Shown: piece by piece, positions 2,083 through 6,799 of the stretch | Layout of the letters: every line of letters starts with the position of its first letter | How positions within the stretch are numbered: the first letter of the stretch is position 1 | Sequence record: PV682947.1 | Source: Escherichia phage WPEC4 | DNA: 64,000 bases | Reading direction: 5' to 3' (one strand) | Notes under the pieces: generated by a model | What the model saw: only the letters and a program-made list of their open reading frames with translations | Told to the model about the DNA's origin: nothing | Database searches by the model: none | Translations under genes and position numbers: made by a program

Positions 2083-2139
2083 TTGACGTTCGCCAGGTGG
2101 CGGCATAATATTTACCACGTAGGGCGGCAATGGTGCCGC
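2083..2139 (+). promoter_or_regulatory. early promoter + 5' stem-loop module (PeSL-like)
   Basis: TTGACG-17-TAATAT then hairpin GCGGC-AATGGT-GCCGC at transcript 5' end. Confidence 0.55.
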
Positions 2140-2160
2140 TCACTATCTGGAGTTAAGATC

Positions 2161-2358
2161 ATGGCAACATTGCACATAGTAGCGAAAGCAGGACAAATCA
2201 ACGTAGTGGTAAACGGCTTTACTGAATTTAGTCACCCCCAGGACGACTATGAAACGGTTTTATCTTTCCTTGATTCTCTGTTAGAAATGAGCGTCATTAC
2301 AGAAGATCAGCACGCTACTAAGTGCGAACGTGTACGCCGTATCGCTGGCGAAGAATAA
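2161..2358 (+). CDS. hypothetical protein
   Basis: ATG 2161 after SD GGAG; ORF-track start 2083 rejected because it includes the promoter/hairpin. Confidence 0.5.
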   Translation: MATLHIVAKAGQINVVVNGFTEFSHPQDDYETVLSFLDSLLEMSVITEDQHATKCERVRRIAGEE

Positions 2359-2364
2359 AAAGTA

Positions 2365-2424
2365 TTGACAACAGGCAACAACCTGATAAGATGTATCACA
2401 TAGGGGCGGGAAGTGGTTTCCCGC
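2365..2424 (+). promoter_or_regulatory. early promoter + 5' stem-loop module (PeSL-like)
   Basis: TTGACA-16-TAAGAT then hairpin GCGGGAA-GTGGT-TTCCCGC. Confidence 0.55.
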
Positions 2425-2447
2425 TCACAACAGAGAGATTAAAGATT

Positions 2448-2720
2448 ATGGCATCATATAGCGCAACAATGATCGTAACGGGTACCACTGGTAAACCTAT
2501 GAGCGGTGGCGGATCTTTCGCTAACATCAATATTGACGGGCGCTTATCCCTGGACGCAGCGATCGCCGTAGCGCGGGAAACATTTAAGAAAGAATGTAAT
2601 TTCAACAAGCAAGATTATTTAGGTTTCGCTATTGAAAAAACCGCGCGCTTTGTTGATTATAAAAGCCCGAAAATGGTTGATACTACACTAAAAGCGCAAG
2701 ATGTAGCATTTTTGCTTTAA
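2448..2720 (+). CDS. hypothetical protein
   Basis: ATG 2448 downstream of module; same frame as ORF track 2322..2720. Confidence 0.5.
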   Translation: MASYSATMIVTGTTGKPMSGGGSFANINIDGRLSLDAAIAVARETFKKECNFNKQDYLGFAIEKTARFVDYKSPKMVDTTLKAQDVAFLL

Positions 2721-2723
2721 GGC

Positions 2724-2778
2724 TTGACATTAACGAATAATTTACTAATATGTTGCATAAGGCGGGAATAGTTCCCGC
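2724..2778 (+). promoter_or_regulatory. early promoter + 5' stem-loop module (PeSL-like)
   Basis: TTGACA-17-TAATAT then hairpin GCGGG-AATAGTT-CCCGC. Confidence 0.55.
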
Positions 2779-2796
2779 TATTTGTAAGGTGATAGA

Positions 2797-3054
2797 ATGT
2801 TTTACATCAAGTTAAAAGGTCACGTGATCGCGTTCAAAGATAATGCTTTTTACAGATTAGCAAAATATGCTTTAATCCATCCTCATTATGTTTATATAAG
2901 GGGGCGTGATGAAATAAATATCTTTGATCAAACAACATGCGAGAACATCGAGATCCGCAAGGTTGGCGTACGTGACTATCGTACATCTTTCTACCCTTGT
3001 AAGGATTCAGCAAGTCTTTTTAAAGTATGTCAATTGTTGAAAAAAGGTGGTTAA
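2797..3054 (+). CDS. hypothetical protein
   Basis: ORF track; SD AAGGTGA upstream. Confidence 0.5.
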   Translation: MFYIKLKGHVIAFKDNAFYRLAKYALIHPHYVYIRGRDEINIFDQTTCENIEIRKVGVRDYRTSFYPCKDSASLFKVCQLLKKGG

Positions 3055-3055
3055 T

Positions 3056-3613
3056 ATGGGGCGTGAATATGTGATCCAGTCTTGGGTAAAACATGAAGCA
3101 GATGATCCGCGCATCATTCCCGATCATCTTATCGATGAATCCACGGGCTATAGCGGTGAGCAAATAGGTAACAGGTTAGCACGTAGTAACGGCAACGTAA
3201 AAGCGCGTTGTGTGCGCCCTGGCTGGCTGGCAAATGGTAACGCTGATTTATCCAGTGCGGAAGATGCGAGCGACGGCGCGAAAGATAATCCTTTGTACAA
3301 AGTTGATCCGGCTTTTCGTGTCCTGGATGAATACCCCAGCAAGATAGCGGCGCTTGATGAAGCCCTAGAAAGTAAGCGCATCACCTGGACCGCTTACAAC
3401 ATGGCAAAAAATGTACTTGATGGTAAATTGATTCAAGCTGAAAGAAAATTAGCCAAAATTGCAGCCATAGCCCAGGAGGAAGACGAGGAGACAACGGAAG
3501 AGGAAGAGTACGAAGAGATCCCGCCGTTGTTGTGTGTTGATGCTTTTCCTGATTATCAGCCGACAGAGGAAGAAAAAAGGATCGCGCTAGAAAACTTTGA
3601 AAATAGTCTTTGA
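3056..3613 (+). CDS. hypothetical acidic protein
   Basis: ATG 3056 after AAGGTGG (ORF track starts at GTG 3047); Glu-rich C-terminus. Confidence 0.5.
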   Translation: MGREYVIQSWVKHEADDPRIIPDHLIDESTGYSGEQIGNRLARSNGNVKARCVRPGWLANGNADLSSAEDASDGAKDNPLYKVDPAFRVLDEYPSKIAALDEALESKRITWTAYNMAKNVLDGKLIQAERKLAKIAAIAQEEDEETTEEEEYEEIPPLLCVDAFPDYQPTEEEKRIALENFENSL

Positions 3614-3666
3614 CATATCGCCGCCACTGGCATAATATTTACCACGTAGGGCGGCAATGGTGCCGC
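3610..3666 (+). promoter_or_regulatory. early promoter + 5' stem-loop module (PeSL-like)
   Basis: TTGACA-17-TAATAT then hairpin GCGGC-AATGGT-GCCGC (same hairpin as 2124-2139). Confidence 0.55.
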
Positions 3667-3695
3667 TCATAGTGAAATTATACAAGAGGCTTACA

Positions 3696-3800
3696 ATGAT
3701 TAATAAAGAAAATAGCTTGACGGTTGGAACGATTAACGCTATCATTCTAGCCGTTCCGTTTTGGATTGTAGTGTCGGTTATTATTTCAATCATCCTTTAA
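3696..3800 (+). CDS. small hydrophobic protein (34 aa)
   Basis: ATG 3696 after AAGAGG; below ORF-track size cutoff; hydrophobic. Confidence 0.35.
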   Translation: MINKENSLTVGTINAIILAVPFWIVVSVIISIIL

Positions 3801-3810
3801 GGTACACACT

Positions 3811-4092
3811 ATGAGCAAGGTAATTAGTCATAAAGAGTTAAGCCCTACCCTTTCAATGAGTGAGTGCACCGATGGCTTTTGGCTGTATGATGATACGCGC
3901 GGCATGAATTTAGCTATGCGTGAAAAAACAGAAGAGGCGGCGTATATTGAAGCCCTGGAATACTACCAGGAACGACTAAAGGAAGTAGAAAACAATTATA
4001 ACAACCTAAAAGCGAGAGTAGATCACTTTATCAGCCAGGTGGCAGATGACGACGATGATCACTACTGCGAACGGTGCGGATCATACAGCTAA
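3811..4092 (+). CDS. hypothetical protein
   Basis: ORF track. Confidence 0.5.
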   Translation: MSKVISHKELSPTLSMSECTDGFWLYDDTRGMNLAMREKTEEAAYIEALEYYQERLKEVENNYNNLKARVDHFISQVADDDDDHYCERCGSYS

Positions 4093-5548: not shown

Positions 5549-5581
5549 CTTTTCGTTATAGCGCCTTATAATGGGCGCTAT
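5545..5581 (+). promoter_or_regulatory. early promoter with -10 embedded in hairpin loop
   Basis: TTGACT then TAGCGCC-TTATAATG-GGCGCTA inverted repeat; TATAAT sits in the loop. Confidence 0.45.
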
Positions 5582-5615
5582 AGAGAAGAGAAACCACTAC
5601 TAACAAGGAAACATC

Positions 5616-5837
5616 ATGATCACTTTTGCTATTGTCGCCGTTGTTGCTGGTCAGGTTTACGTAAATGATACATTCACCACAGAAGACAAGGCAGCAGGAG
5701 ACATCACCGCCGCTTATAATGAGTGCAAGGCAGTAGAAAGGATGTTAGCGCCTTGTATGTTAATGAGTGAACGCCAGGACGGGATAACAGTATTTAGCAA
5801 CATTGAAACAGGGTACCAAATGGTAGTAACAAAATAA
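5616..5837 (+). CDS. hypothetical protein
   Basis: ORF track; SD and first codons identical to gene 5375. Confidence 0.5.
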   Translation: MITFAIVAVVAGQVYVNDTFTTEDKAAGDITAAYNECKAVERMLAPCMLMSERQDGITVFSNIETGYQMVVTK

Positions 5838-5840
5838 AAC

Positions 5841-5897
5841 TTGACATAGGTTTAATTTTCAGTAAACTGTTACACGTAGGGCGGGAACTGTTCCTGC
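5841..5897 (+). promoter_or_regulatory. early promoter + 5' stem-loop module (PeSL-like)
   Basis: TTGACA-16-TAAACT then hairpin GCGGGAAC-T-GTTCCTGC. Confidence 0.5.
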
Positions 5898-5916
5898 TCA
5901 AAAAGAGAGAAAGACC

Positions 5917-6270
5917 ATGAAAGCACAAAATGCAATTAAAGAGTACATCCTTGCCGCTATCGATTTTAATGATTATGGTATTACAACAGAAAAAGAGAAG
6001 ATCGCGGAATTGATGCGCCGTTTTAATTCTGAATATTGGTACCCTGATAATCAATCACGTTTCAATTATAGCATTGTGAAAGCACTTGCATCATGGTTAC
6101 AAGGTTTACCATCAGATATTAATATCGCTTTCGAATATTGGGAAGTAGATCGCTTGTTAACATCTTGGGGATACATTAAAGAGAATAGCAGCGATGATAA
6201 AATCCAACGAGAAAGGGAAAATTATTGGCTTTATATTGCAGGTGTGATCCTTGCTTGCTCTTATGAATAA
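5917..6270 (+). CDS. hypothetical protein
   Basis: ORF track; SD AAGAGAGA. Confidence 0.5.
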   Translation: MKAQNAIKEYILAAIDFNDYGITTEKEKIAELMRRFNSEYWYPDNQSRFNYSIVKALASWLQGLPSDINIAFEYWEVDRLLTSWGYIKENSSDDKIQRERENYWLYIAGVILACSYE

Positions 6271-6276
6271 TAAACC

Positions 6277-6329
6277 TTGACAATTTTACAAAATAGTTTA
6301 AATTAACAATATGGCGGCAATGGTGCCGC
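6277..6329 (+). promoter_or_regulatory. early promoter + 5' stem-loop module (PeSL-like)
   Basis: TTGACA then hairpin GCGGC-AATGGT-GCCGC. Confidence 0.5.
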
Positions 6330-6349
6330 TAATATAAAGAGGAAACAAA

Positions 6350-6496
6350 ATGAATACATCTAATCGCGCAGAAAAAATTCAATCTTCCAAGATCCGCAAG
6401 GCCTGGAATGAAGAAGTGATCCGCAAAGGCGATAAGCGCAATAAAACAAAGCGCGGGAAGAGTGATAAATATAATTGGATGGATTTAGAGGACTAA
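6350..6496 (+). CDS. small basic protein (48 aa)
   Basis: ATG 6350 after AAGAGGAAA; below ORF-track cutoff. Confidence 0.4.
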   Translation: MNTSNRAEKIQSSKIRKAWNEEVIRKGDKRNKTKRGKSDKYNWMDLED

Positions 6497-6503
6497 CATA
6501 ACA

Positions 6504-6530
6504 AGGGCGCATCAAGCGCCCTTTCTTTTT
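6504..6530 (+). terminator. rho-independent terminator
   Basis: AGGGCGC-ATCAA-GCGCCCT followed by TTTCTTTTT. Confidence 0.6.
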
Positions 6531-6551
6531 ACATGCAGAGGATAAACACAG

Positions 6552-6737
6552 ATGACTTTAAACGAGCTTAAAACAGCCTACAACGCAACATTAAAAATAG
6601 CCGTGCGTTACCGTGATGAGTACGGTTTTATTGCGCAGGGCGTGATCCTGGGCTTTTCTGACGATGGTTTGATCTATGTTGATGCACATCACAACAAGGT
6701 TAAACCTGAAAACGTCATCAGTATAAAATATCTTTAA
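6552..6737 (+). CDS. hypothetical protein
   Basis: ORF track; SD GAGGATAA. Confidence 0.5.
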   Translation: MTLNELKTAYNATLKIAVRYRDEYGFIAQGVILGFSDDGLIYVDAHHNKVKPENVISIKYL

Positions 6738-6743
6738 AAATGG

Positions 6744-6799
6744 TTGACATTATAACCAGATTTACTAAGATGTATTGCATAGGGCGGGAATAGTTCCCG
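6744..6799 (+). promoter_or_regulatory. early promoter + 5' stem-loop module (PeSL-like)
   Basis: TTGACA-16-TAAGAT then hairpin CGGGAA-TAG-TTCCCG. Confidence 0.5.

What the first reader, a model, noticed from the sequence alone, without database searches (positions are those of the whole stretch)
2083..6799. Twelve early-type promoters each followed by a covarying 5' stem-loop (PeSL-like modules)
Nearly every small gene in 2.0-6.8 kb is preceded by TTGACA, a 16-18-bp spacer, a TA-rich -10 and then a GC-rich hairpin at the predicted transcript 5' end. Stem sequences differ between copies but keep pairing (GCGGC/GCCGC, GCGGGAA/TTCCCGC, GGCGG/CCGCC, GCGGGAAC/GTTCCTGC, GGGAA/TTCCC, AGCGCC/GGCGCT), which indicates selection for structure. 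This matches the promoter-early-stem-loop cassettes described in T4-type phages (recalled from the literature, not checked here). A 5'-terminal hairpin could stabilise early mRNAs or act as a recombination module boundary.
Basis: partly seen in the sequence, partly recalled or inferred. Interest (0 to 1): 0.65.

Follow-up and report, generated by a model that had tools for sequence, protein, structure and literature searches.

The report
Repeated early promoter–hairpin gene cassettes
A phAPEC8-like coliphage puts almost every small early gene behind the same ~90-bp cassette (a strong host-type promoter, then a GC-rich hairpin at the predicted start of the mRNA), and recombination between these cassettes moves genes around, even between distantly related phage groups.

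Summary
Twelve sigma-70-type promoters lie on the + strand between 2083 and 6802. Ten belong to one tight family: TTGACA, 16-17 nt, TAnnnT, ~10 nt, then a GC-rich hairpin. A covariance model scores these ten at 55-67 bits and nothing else in the 64 kb above 20 bits. One copy (m07) is weak. In one (m09) the hairpin encloses the -10.

The window is a phAPEC8-like myovirus (Phapecoctavirus), not a T4-type phage. Relatives carry more than 20 copies in one array of genes of unknown function. rV5-like phages have the same layout with other stems.

The promoter hexamers are under strong constraint: 0/180 changes in the -35, against 13% in the spacer and at third codon positions. The hairpins stay stable across relatives, have no U-tract, and keep their distance to the promoter rather than to the start codon.

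Cassettes mark recombination breakpoints. One window cassette is a clean chimera of two ESCO13 cassettes. Cassette-flanked genes are shared between subfamilies at up to 94% DNA identity, while core genes share no detectable DNA similarity.

Best reading: a PeSL-like expression and recombination cassette whose hairpin is transcribed as the mRNA 5' end and probably stabilises the mRNA. That function is inferred. phAPEC8's GenBank record already annotates the hairpins, as "PHIRE promoters".

The parts
2083..2141 (+). Module m01: -35 TTGACG 2083-2088, -10 TAATAT 2106-2111, hairpin GGGCGGCA-ATGG-TGCCGCTC 2122-2141; the gene starts at ATG 2161. A second small inverted repeat (CGCCA/GGCG, about 2091-2102) lies in the spacer.
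   Evidence: z -2.87; 57.8 bits
2365..2426 (+). Module m02: -35 TTGACA 2365-2370, extended -10 TGaTAAGAT (hexamer 2387-2392), hairpin GGGCGGGAA-GTGGT-TTCCCGCTC 2404-2426; ATG 2448.
   Evidence: z -3.35; 56.4 bits. The orthologous site in phAPEC8, Ro121 and the IMG/VR contig carries a different, equally stable hairpin type.
2724..2779 (+). Module m03: -35 TTGACA 2724-2729, -10 TAATAT 2746-2751, hairpin GGCGGGAA-TAG-TTCCCGCT 2761-2779; ATG 2797.
   Evidence: z -3.12; 55.0 bits
3610..3668 (+). Module m04: -35 TTGACA 3610-3615, -10 TAATAT 3633-3638, hairpin GGGCGGCA-ATGG-TGCCGCTC 3649-3668. The likely gene start is ATG 3696, not the ATG at 3657 in the hairpin loop that WPEC1's annotation uses.
   Evidence: z -3.06; 63 bits
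4112..4172 (+). Module m05: -35 TTGACA 4112-4117, -10 TAAGAT 4134-4139, hairpin GGCGG-T-GGAA-TAC-TTCCCCGCC 4151-4172 (bulged T); ATG 4194.
   Evidence: z -3.13; 67.4 bits
4563..4619 (+). Module m06: -35 TTGACA 4563-4568, -10 TATAGT 4585-4590, hairpin GGCGGCA-ATGG-TGCCGCC 4602-4619. The likely gene start is ATG 4642, not 4609.
   Evidence: z -2.40; 67.3 bits
4841..4892 (+). Module m07 (degenerate): -35 TTGACA 4841-4846, -10 CATAAT 4864-4869, weak hairpin GGGAA-CAC-TTCCC 4880-4892; ATG 4917.
   Evidence: z -2.49, -5.5 kcal/mol; only 11.1 bits. Conserved in ESCO13 and partly in alia.
5289..5351 (+). Module m08: -35 TTGACA 5289-5294, -10 TAAACT 5311-5316, hairpin AGGCGG-C-GGA-ATGG-TCC-A-CCGCCT 5328-5351 (1x1 C/A internal loop); ATG 5375. 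This cassette is a recombinant chimera.
   Evidence: z -4.16; 55 bits; the left part is identical to ESCO13 module L002 12983 and the right part to L002 13933; the crossover lies in the shared GTAAACTGTATTACAT.
5545..5581 (+). Module m09 (classical PeSL layout): -35 TTGACT 5545-5550, -10 TATAAT 5567-5572 in the loop of hairpin ATAGCGCC 5558-5565 / GGCGCTAT 5574-5581; ATG 5616.
   Evidence: z -4.70. Same layout as the RB49 PeSLs with the -10 in the loop. Not matched by R1.
5841..5899 (+). Module m10: -35 TTGACA 5841-5846, -10 TAAACT 5863-5868, hairpin GGGCGGGAA-CTG-TTCCTGCTC 5879-5899 (two G.U pairs on the sense strand); ATG 5917.
   Evidence: z -3.16; 56.3 bits; the antisense strand folds at only -4.6 kcal/mol
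6277..6331 (+). Module m11: -35 TTGACA 6277-6282, -10 TAAATT 6299-6304, hairpin TGGCGGCA-ATGG-TGCCGCTA 6312-6331; ATG 6350.
   Evidence: z -3.59; 55.2 bits
6744..6802 (+). Module m12: -35 TTGACA 6744-6749, -10 TAAGAT 6766-6771, hairpin GGCGGGAA-TAG-TTCCCG-A-CC 6783-6802; ATG 6823. Its gene is cut at about 6936 by the repeat mosaic.
   Evidence: z -2.91; 61.5 bits
6503..6530 (.). The only canonical intrinsic terminator in the array (AAGGGCGC-ATCAA-GCGCCCTT followed by TCTTTTT, bidirectional). It serves as the contrast for the module hairpins, which lack a U-tract.

Best explanation
What it is (shown): a family of ~90-bp intergenic expression cassettes in the array of genes of unknown function in a phAPEC8-like myovirus. 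From 5' to 3', each cassette holds:
- the upstream gene's stop codon in an A-rich tract;
- a near-consensus sigma-70 promoter (TTGACA, 16-17 nt, TAnnnT);
- about 10 conserved bases (GTATCACRTAG);
- a 7-10-bp GC-rich hairpin with its G-rich arm first;
- a purine-rich leader with the Shine-Dalgarno sequence;
- the start codon.

How it most likely works (inferred): host RNA polymerase starts at the CA or CG step 7-8 nt after the -10. The hairpin would then occupy roughly +4 to +25 of each early mRNA. A hairpin that close to the 5' end limits access of RppH and RNase E, which need single-stranded 5' ends. It would therefore act as a built-in 5' stabiliser and insulator that gives any downstream gene the same expression context.

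Recombination (shown by comparison): because the cassettes resemble each other, they are substrates for homologous recombination. This deletes, inserts and swaps the genes between them, within the genus and between subfamilies.
For: Family and copy number:
- R1 finds 10 copies in the window, and 76 copies (65 distinct) across the window plus five related arrays. All are on the coding strand.

Promoters are functional elements. Window versus 4 close relatives:
- -35: 0/180 substitutions; -10: 2.2%.
- Spacer: 13.3%; third codon positions: 13.3%.

Hairpins are maintained:
- All 12 have z = -2.4 to -4.7.
- All but one of the 76 copies fold at -9.3 to -21 kcal/mol (Ro121 7802: -7.8; 42 nt downstream of the -10 folded).
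- Covariation score 0.266 against 0.129 in shuffles (0/500).
- At orthologous sites, 13 one-sided changes keep pairing through G.U on the sense strand (6 independent events), and 3 changes are two-sided.
- At m02, relatives carry a different but equally stable hairpin.

Position follows the promoter, not the start codon:
- End of -10 to GCGG is 12 nt in 55 of 76 copies (sd 1.1). Hairpin to ATG has sd 4.4.
- In the rV5-like phage naswa, stems of different sequence (GGGGCAA/TTGCCCC, GGGGGGC/GCCCC, GGGGCA/TGCCC) begin 9-12 nt after the -10 although the intervening bases differ.

Not terminators: the 9 nt after the stems are 53% A and 14% T, with 0-3 T each.

Recombination:
- 44 of 120 indel junction ends lie in cassettes, against 17.9 expected.
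- m08 is an exact chimera of two ESCO13 cassettes that flank 875 bp absent from the window.
- One gene sits behind three different upstream cassettes in window/ESCO13, alia and naswa, and homology breaks at its start and stop codons.
- Cassette-flanked genes are 75-94% identical in DNA between Vequintavirinae and Stephanstirmvirinae. By contrast, 50 kb of naswa core DNA has no blastn match to the window apart from one tRNA gene, and four core proteins that matched are 28-48% identical.
Against: - No transcription start site has been mapped, so the claim that the hairpin is 5'-terminal rests on the consensus -10-to-start distance.
- With the predicted start, 3-4 nt would remain unpaired. That is borderline for blocking RppH and RNase E.
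[quoted passage not shown] The hairpin would therefore give little protection in read-through transcripts.
- The strand test is inconclusive: the sense strand folds better in 17 of 43 core hairpins and the antisense strand in 13 (Wilcoxon p = 0.23). One hairpin type (m08) folds better on the antisense strand.
- Stem sites diverge at 8.5%, only moderately below the neutral proxy of 13.3%.
- The invariant GCGG/CCGC base and the conserved RTAG in front of it could reflect sequence-specific recognition, or simply common descent and gene conversion.
- m09 cannot form its hairpin in its own transcript.
- The junction counts re-count the same events across genome pairs.
Confidence: 0.55

Rival explanations
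1. Classical PeSL function: the hairpins attenuate or terminate read-through transcription coming from the upstream cassettes. Each gene's dose would then be set mainly by its own promoter.
For: - In RB49/phi1 a PeSL stem-loop reduced lacZ expression about as much as the rrnB T1 terminator (PMC2839356).
- The array has only one canonical terminator (6503-6523), so read-through is otherwise unchecked.
- m09 has the classical layout, with the -10 in the hairpin loop.
- The stems share the G-run/C-run character of RB49 stem-loops.
Against: - There is no U-tract after any stem (A 53%, T 14%).
- The hairpin lies downstream of its own promoter. An efficient terminator there would also abort that promoter's transcripts before the gene.
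- Spacing is fixed to the -10 rather than to the upstream stop codon.
- In RB49 the hairpins lie inside the promoter, so they escape this problem.
Confidence: 0.17
2. DNA-level element: the inverted repeat is an operator at about +5 to +25, bound by a dimeric phage or host protein that shuts off, or otherwise times, all early promoters together.
For: - It is a palindrome at a fixed distance from the promoter, a classic roadblock position.
- The outer half-sites GCGG/CCGC and the RTAG in front of them are nearly invariant.
- The strand-of-folding test does not favour RNA significantly.
- Terminator-like palindromes can double as transcription-factor sites (preprint 10.64898/2026.08.19.745784; section heading seen, section not read).
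Against: - The distance between the outer half-sites varies from 16 to 21 nt and more, with bulges. That is hard to reconcile with a rigid dimer.
- The inner, variable bases change in a complementary way.
- rV5-like phages keep the position but use unrelated stems.
- The G-rich arm is on the coding strand in all 43 distinct hairpins, an asymmetry that a symmetric operator does not need.
Confidence: 0.1
3. Passenger repeat: the hairpin has no function of its own. It is carried along because the whole cassette spreads by duplication, gene conversion and recombination.
For: - Paralogous cassettes are nearly identical over 40 nt (m01 and m04).
- A chimeric cassette exists.
- Stem divergence (8.5%) is not far below neutral.
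- Several stem changes at orthologous sites break outer pairs.
Against: - Stability is kept in 75 of 76 copies folded.
- One-sided changes are biased towards G.U.
- Whole hairpin types are swapped without loss of stability.
- Stems of different sequence occupy the same position in Vequintavirinae.
- Some naswa promoters with short leaders lack the hairpin altogether. The hairpin is therefore a separable module, not an obligatory part of the promoter repeat.
Confidence: 0.1
4. Phage-specific promoter: the 20-mers (e.g. GTAGGGCGGCAATGGTGCCG) are promoters for a phage-modified or phage-encoded polymerase, as annotated with PHIRE in the phAPEC8 record.
For: The GenBank annotation of JX561091. Hairpin-form promoters exist in phage N4 (from memory).
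Against: - PHIRE only reports over-represented 20-mers.
- Every copy lies 10-12 nt behind a conserved sigma-70 promoter.
- Compensatory stem changes are not expected of a linear promoter.
- The largest ORF in the window is 746 aa, so it holds no N4-like giant virion polymerase. The rest of the genome was not checked.
Confidence: 0.03

Closest known systems
PeSLs (promoter-early stem-loops) of T4-type phages: RB49/phi1, PST/T4, nt-1/KVP40 (PMC2839356, PMC4122927)
   Same: - The order of parts is the same: stop codon in an A-rich tract, near-perfect sigma-70 promoter, GC-rich stem-loop with the G-run first, Shine-Dalgarno sequence, start codon.
- Both lie between small genes of unknown function in a variable region.
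- In both, cassettes are crossover points for deletions, insertions and replacements.
- m09 has exactly the RB49 layout with the -10 in the loop.
   Different: - The phage lineage differs (Stephanstirmvirinae/Vequintavirinae).
- BLAST with a cassette (E up to 0.01) returned 131 records; those listed and the organism tally are phAPEC8/phi92-like phages, with no T4-type phage among them.
- In the RB49 region I scanned, every hairpin lies between the -35 and -10 or across the -10. The paper also lists upstream and just-downstream variants.
- Here the position is fixed 7-11 nt after the -10, so the hairpin is transcribed from its own promoter.
- A terminator role was shown for a PeSL. It is not tested here and is disfavoured by the layout.
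- Mini-circles were not tested.
5'-terminal stabiliser stem-loops of E. coli mRNAs (ompA and papA 5' UTRs; references 92-95 in review PMC3997798)
   Same: [quoted passage not shown]
   Different: - Those are single, experimentally proven elements.
- Here the 5' end is only predicted, 3-4 unpaired nt would remain, and the element is repeated more than 20 times per genome as part of a mobile cassette.
'Putative promoter determined with PHIRE' features in the phAPEC8 GenBank record JX561091
   Same: They are the same sequences: the annotated 20-mers are the hairpins.
   Different: They were annotated as phage promoters. No hairpin, 5' UTR or recombination role is recorded, and the adjacent sigma-70 promoters are annotated separately (MEME).
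Promoter-coupled terminators in bacteria (preprint 10.64898/2026.08.19.745784)
   Same: A stem-loop and a promoter share one short intergenic region between tandem genes.
   Different: There the terminator ends about 10 bp upstream of the next start site, and its T-tract contributes to the promoter. Here the hairpin is downstream of the start and has no T-tract.
Promoter-proximal antitermination RNA hairpins (lambda nut boxB, HK022 put) - recalled from memory, not tested
   Same: A small RNA hairpin is transcribed soon after an early promoter and acts in cis.
   Different: There is one per operon, not one per gene. They have specific loop sequences or paired stem-loops. Here the loops vary (ATGG, ATAG, TAG, TAC, CTG, GTGGT), and there are almost no terminators to override. 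No Rfam family matches.

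Membership tests
PeSL (T4-type promoter-early stem-loop cassette) | Near-consensus sigma-70 early promoter with an A/T-rich tract upstream that holds the preceding stop codon | tested here: met
   - TTGACA in 10 of 12 copies; spacer 16-17 nt.
- The 20 nt upstream are 77% A+T.
- -35: 0/180 substitutions; -10: 2.2%; spacer: 13.3%.
PeSL (T4-type promoter-early stem-loop cassette) | Stable stem-loop that is part of the same conserved intergenic motif | tested here: met
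   z = -2.4 to -4.7 for all 12; 76 copies in six arrays keep it.
PeSL (T4-type promoter-early stem-loop cassette) | Stem-loop placed within, across or just beside the promoter boxes, so that it acts on transcription arriving from upstream | tested here: not met
   In 11 of 12 copies the hairpin starts 7-11 nt after the -10. In the RB49 region scanned, all hairpins lie between the -35 and -10 or have the -10 in the loop. Only m09 conforms.
PeSL (T4-type promoter-early stem-loop cassette) | Stem-loop functions as a transcription terminator/attenuator | not testable with these tools
   Sequence only: no U-tract. The PeSL evidence was a lacZ reporter assay.
PeSL (T4-type promoter-early stem-loop cassette) | Concentrated in a hyperplastic region, flanking genes of unknown function | tested here: met
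   - All ten proteins tested fall in PHROGs of unknown function. Nine have no Pfam hit and one hits DUF1033.
- Gene content differs between close relatives.
- The array lies next to the right terminal repeat in UAB_1.
PeSL (T4-type promoter-early stem-loop cassette) | Indels and replacements between related phages have their breakpoints in the cassettes | tested here: met
   - 44 of 120 junction ends lie in cassettes, against 17.9 expected (events are re-counted across pairs).
- m08 is a chimera.
- Homology breaks at the start and stop codons of a gene shared between subfamilies.
PeSL (T4-type promoter-early stem-loop cassette) | Host genome is a T4-type myovirus (the only group for which PeSLs are described) | tested here: not met
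   The window is a Phapecoctavirus relative. Only three papers in the library contain the word 'PeSL', and all three deal with T4-type phages.
PeSL (T4-type promoter-early stem-loop cassette) | Excised cassette-plus-gene mini-circles | not testable with these tools
   Needs inverse PCR on phage or infected-cell DNA.
Intrinsic (Rho-independent) terminator | GC-rich hairpin immediately followed by a U-tract | tested here: not met
   0-3 T in the 9 nt after the stems. The scan flags only 6503-6523 as a strong site.
5'-terminal mRNA stabiliser stem-loop | Hairpin within a few unpaired nucleotides of the mapped 5' end, and a measurable effect on half-life | not testable with these tools
   The predicted start at the CA/CG step leaves 3-4 nt unpaired. 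No start-site or half-life data were found.
Any Rfam family | Match to a curated covariance model | tested here: not met
   Gathering thresholds give only tRNAs at 60-62 kb. A permissive scan of 1900-7000 gives only two chance-level hits.

The most novel reading that the evidence does not exclude
The conserved RTAG-GGCGG...CCGC hairpin is a 'self' tag on the phage's early mRNAs, read by a phage-encoded or host factor. Such a factor could selectively protect these mRNAs, load ribosomes on them, or shut them all off together while host mRNA is degraded. On this reading the tag-bearing cassettes are portable expression units that let genes of unknown function move between unrelated coliphage subfamilies during co-infection and be expressed at once.
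Probability: 0.12. Interest if true: 0.75.

Novelty: new variant of a known kind. Interest (0 to 1): 0.42.

Why it matters
- It extends the PeSL idea (regulatory cassettes that are also recombination handles) from T4-type phages to the rV5/phAPEC8/phi92 supergroup. Phages of this group are widely isolated as candidates for therapy against E. coli.
- It gives a concrete mechanism for the extreme turnover of their early genes, including exchange between subfamilies.
- The different hairpin placement predicts a different job (5' mRNA end rather than attenuator). A single 5'-end mapping experiment can test this.
- It corrects existing annotation. The "PHIRE promoters" are hairpins. Gene callers also pick false start codons inside the hairpin loop (the ATG and GTG in AATGGTG).
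- The cassettes could serve as compact, naturally insulated expression units for engineering.

Tried and rejected
- Rfam, at gathering thresholds and permissively: nothing relevant.
- The repeat finder for short inverted repeats with its default extension missed the hairpins.
- MAFFT and RNAalifold on the copies recovered only 4 pairs, because the hairpin types are out of register. A hand-specified stem was used for R1. Its alignment is still blurred by bulges, so the hairpins were also analysed one by one.
- Strand-of-folding test (G.U versus A.C, sense versus antisense energy). An apparent sense bias (23 against 9) fell to 17 against 13, p = 0.23, once flanks were trimmed and rV5-like stems added. 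It is inconclusive and is not used as evidence.
- IMG/VR pattern scan: 80 loci. Only five contigs (97-153 kb) hold real cassettes, and the other hits lack the hairpin.
- Literature searches for start-site or RNA-seq data on Stephanstirmvirinae or Vequintavirinae, and for any description of promoter-hairpin cassettes in them, found nothing. The phAPEC8 genome announcement is not held.
- Rejected: intrinsic terminators (no U-tract).
- Rejected: RNase III sites. The stems are 7-10 bp, too short by general knowledge of RNase III substrates (from memory).
- Rejected: N4-type hairpin promoters. The window has no giant polymerase ORF, and a sigma-70 promoter precedes every copy.
- Checked for tandem repeats upstream of the array (1-2200): only a short AAAAAG run.

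Full report
**Identity of the window.** Region 2000-7000 matches Escherichia phage WPEC1 at 100% identity. It matches many Phapecoctavirus genomes (ESCO13, Ro121c4YLVW, tuntematon and others) at 92-94%. The window is therefore a phAPEC8-like myovirus of the subfamily Stephanstirmvirinae, not a T4-type phage (taxonomy).

**The observation.**
- Reading the sequence, a consensus scan and my own promoter-plus-fold scan confirm twelve + strand promoters, at 2083, 2365, 2724, 3610, 4112, 4563, 4841, 5289, 5545, 5841, 6277 and 6744.
- Ten are one family: TTGACA, 16-17 nt, TAnnnT, about 10 nt (GTATCACRTAG), then a 7-10-bp hairpin built on GCGG...CCGC.
- The exceptions are m07 (4841), with only GGGAA/TTCCC, and m09 (5545), whose hairpin encloses the -10.
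- A covariance model built from the ten (R1) scores them at 55-67 bits. With filters off, the next hit in the whole 64 kb is 19.4 bits.
- All twelve hairpins beat dinucleotide shuffles (z = -2.4 to -4.7).
- Ten of the thirteen strongest + strand local hairpins in 2.0-6.9 kb are module hairpins, and one more is a genuine terminator at 6503-6523.
- Twelve of fifteen genes carry a module. The genes starting at 3056, 3811 and 6552 do not.

**Distribution.**
- ESCO13 has about 24 copies in a single array. phAPEC8, Ro121c4YLVW and the phi92-like phages alia and UAB_1 have similar arrays.
- In total there are 76 copies (65 distinct) across the window and five related arrays, always on the coding strand.
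- In UAB_1 the array lies next to the annotated right terminal repeat.
- An exact-pattern scan of IMG/VR found real cassettes in only five contigs of 97-153 kb.
- One of those contigs is rV5-like. In the Vequintavirus phage naswa, 9 of 17 gene-proximal promoters are followed, 9-12 nt after the -10, by a hairpin. Several have unrelated stems (GGGGCAA/TTGCCCC, GGGGGGC/GCCCC, GGGGCA/TGCCC), and the intervening bases also differ. Promoters with short leaders lack the hairpin.
- All ten proteins tested fall in PHROGs of unknown function. Nine have no Pfam match and one hits DUF1033.

**Prior annotation.** The phAPEC8 GenBank record marks the -35/-10 parts as "host dependent promoter (MEME)". It marks 20-mers such as GTAGGGCGGCAATGGTGCCG, which are the hairpins, as "putative promoter determined with PHIRE". 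I found no paper that describes a promoter-hairpin cassette in this phage group. The word "PeSL" occurs in only three papers in the library, all dealing with T4-type phages.

**Selection.** Per-site divergence between the window and four close relatives:

| Site class | Divergence |
|---|---|
| Third codon positions | 13.3% |
| Promoter spacer | 13.3% |
| -35 hexamer | 0 of 180 |
| -10 hexamer | 2.2% |
| -10 to stem | 5.3% |
| Stem | 8.5% |
| Loop | 8.8% |
| Stem to ATG (leader) | 11.1% |

- The promoters are clearly constrained.
- The stems tolerate change but keep folding. All but one of the 76 copies fold at -9.3 to -21 kcal/mol over the 42 nt downstream of the -10.
- The covariation score is 0.266 against 0.129 in shuffles (0/500), and slid controls give 0.03-0.11.
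- At orthologous sites, 13 one-sided changes keep pairing through G.U (6 independent events) and 3 are two-sided. Of the 26 "broken" pairs, 16 are an alignment artefact at m02, where the relatives carry another hairpin type of equal stability.
- The base GCGG/CCGC hardly varies, so true covariation is limited to the upper stem.

**Which strand folds.** A first count favoured the sense strand, 23 to 9. With trimmed hairpins and the rV5-like stems added, the count is 17 to 13 (p = 0.23). I treat this test as inconclusive. One asymmetry is absolute: the G-rich arm is 5' on the coding strand in all 43 distinct hairpins.

**Position.** The distance from the end of the -10 to GCGG is 12 nt in 55 of 76 copies (sd 1.1). 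The distance from hairpin to ATG has sd 4.4. With the usual start 7-8 nt after the -10, at the conserved CA/CG step, the hairpin would begin about +4. The 9 nt after the stems are A-rich (53% A, 14% T), so the hairpins are not intrinsic terminators. The one real terminator in the array has TCTTTTT.

**Comparison with PeSLs.**
- The PeSL papers describe the same order of parts, a tested terminator role for the stem-loop, five variable stem-loop positions, and recombination between PeSLs.
- I scanned the RB49 hyperplastic region directly. Every hairpin there is either the spacer between the -35 and -10 (TTGACA-GGGGATC...GATCCCC-TATAAT) or has the -10 in its loop. None lies after the start site.
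- The window's m09 is therefore a classical PeSL, while the other modules are a variant with a transcribed hairpin.
- BLAST with a cassette returned 131 records. Those listed, and the organism tally, are phAPEC8/phi92-like phages.

**Recombination.**
- Between related arrays, 44 of 120 indel junction ends fall in cassettes, against 17.9 expected. The same events are re-counted across genome pairs, so this is indicative only.
- The clearest case is m08. Its left half, through GTAAACTGTATTACAT, is identical to ESCO13 cassette L002 12983. Its right half is identical to L002 13933. The 875 bp between those two cassettes in ESCO13 is missing from the window.
- The gene at window 4642-4821 sits behind a GGCGGCA hairpin cassette in the window and ESCO13, behind a hairpin-less promoter in alia, and behind a GGGGGGC hairpin cassette in naswa. 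Homology breaks at its start codon and stop codon.
- Array genes are 75-94% identical in DNA between naswa (Vequintavirinae) and the Stephanstirmvirinae.
- In contrast, 50 kb of naswa core DNA has no blastn match to the window except a tRNA gene. Four core proteins that matched are 28-48% identical. This implies recent exchange of cassette-bounded genes between subfamilies.

**Mechanism.**
- Shown: a repeated promoter-hairpin-Shine-Dalgarno cassette with conserved promoters, maintained hairpins, promoter-locked spacing, and breakpoints at cassettes.
- Inferred: the hairpin is the 5' end of each early mRNA and limits RppH and RNase E access. Both enzymes need single-stranded 5' termini (PMC3997798).
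- Weak points: no start site has been mapped, 3-4 nt would stay unpaired, and RNase E can step over small stem-loops in read-through RNA (PMC9943677).
- Rivals are a PeSL-type attenuator, a DNA operator, a passenger repeat and the PHIRE-promoter reading. Each is weighed in its own section of this report.

**Verdict.** This is a new variant of a known kind: a PeSL-like cassette in a different phage lineage, with a different hairpin placement. It is already half-annotated in GenBank. Interest is moderate.

Noticed in passing
window 6936-12600: A mosaic of ~77-nt and ~154-156-nt segments, each present 2-7 times in both orientations at 94-100% identity (16 direct families, 88 inverted pairs; spacings of 77, 155, 233 and 309 nt). 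The pieces are fragments of genuine array genes. The 77-nt quantum (the default largest SPAdes k-mer, from memory) and the read-length-sized units suggest an assembly-graph tangle rather than biology. The mosaic cuts the cassette array short: ESCO13 has about 12 further cassettes beyond this point. WPEC1 (161 kb, against about 150 kb for relatives) holds similar pieces.
   Followed up: partly
window 3657 and 4609 (hairpin loops of m04 and m06): The hairpin loop AATGGTG contains an ATG and a GTG. ORF callers, and WPEC1's annotation, use the ATG as the start codon (3657-3800 and 4609-4821). The starts with a Shine-Dalgarno sequence are at 3696 and 4642. This is probably a systematic mis-annotation in this phage group.
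   Followed up: partly
L003 (phAPEC8 JX561091) 8760-8779, 9399-9418, 10288-10307, 11304-11323, 12158-12177, 12590-12609: The features annotated 'putative promoter determined with PHIRE' are the cassette hairpins, not promoters.
   Followed up: yes
window 6503-6530 and gene 6552-6737: A strong bidirectional intrinsic terminator sits in the middle of the array. The next gene (6552-6737) has no recognisable promoter of its own, so how it is expressed is unclear.
   Followed up: no
window 2090-2103: m01 also has a small inverted repeat (CGCCA/GGCG) in its -35/-10 spacer. That is the classical RB49-type PeSL position, and it occurs here in addition to the downstream hairpin.
   Followed up: no
window 44073-44140 (- strand): The only cassette-like site outside the array (R1 19.4 bits): TTGACT-16-TATAAT, followed 13 nt later by the hairpin GGGAGGA/TCCTCCC. 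Its 5' arm contains a GGAGG, close to an ATG, so it may be a sequestered ribosome-binding site.
   Followed up: no
window 60068-61990: A cluster of 11 tRNA genes on the + strand (Rfam).
   Followed up: no
L095 (naswa) 11142-11335, 11332-11685, 13486-13804 versus L004 and L006: Genes of unknown function, bounded by cassettes, are shared at 88-94% DNA identity between Vequintavirinae and Stephanstirmvirinae. Their core genes have no detectable DNA similarity (four core proteins that matched are 28-48% identical).
   Followed up: yes
IMG/VR sample 3300045988, about 25 contigs of ~22-55 kb (e.g. L010, L019, L020, L022): Each holds a single exact match of the same length (46 nt) to TTGACA-N17-TAnnnT-N10-TAGGGCGG, without the hairpin (no R1 hit). 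This may be one conserved promoter in an unrelated, abundant phage group rather than chance.
   Followed up: no
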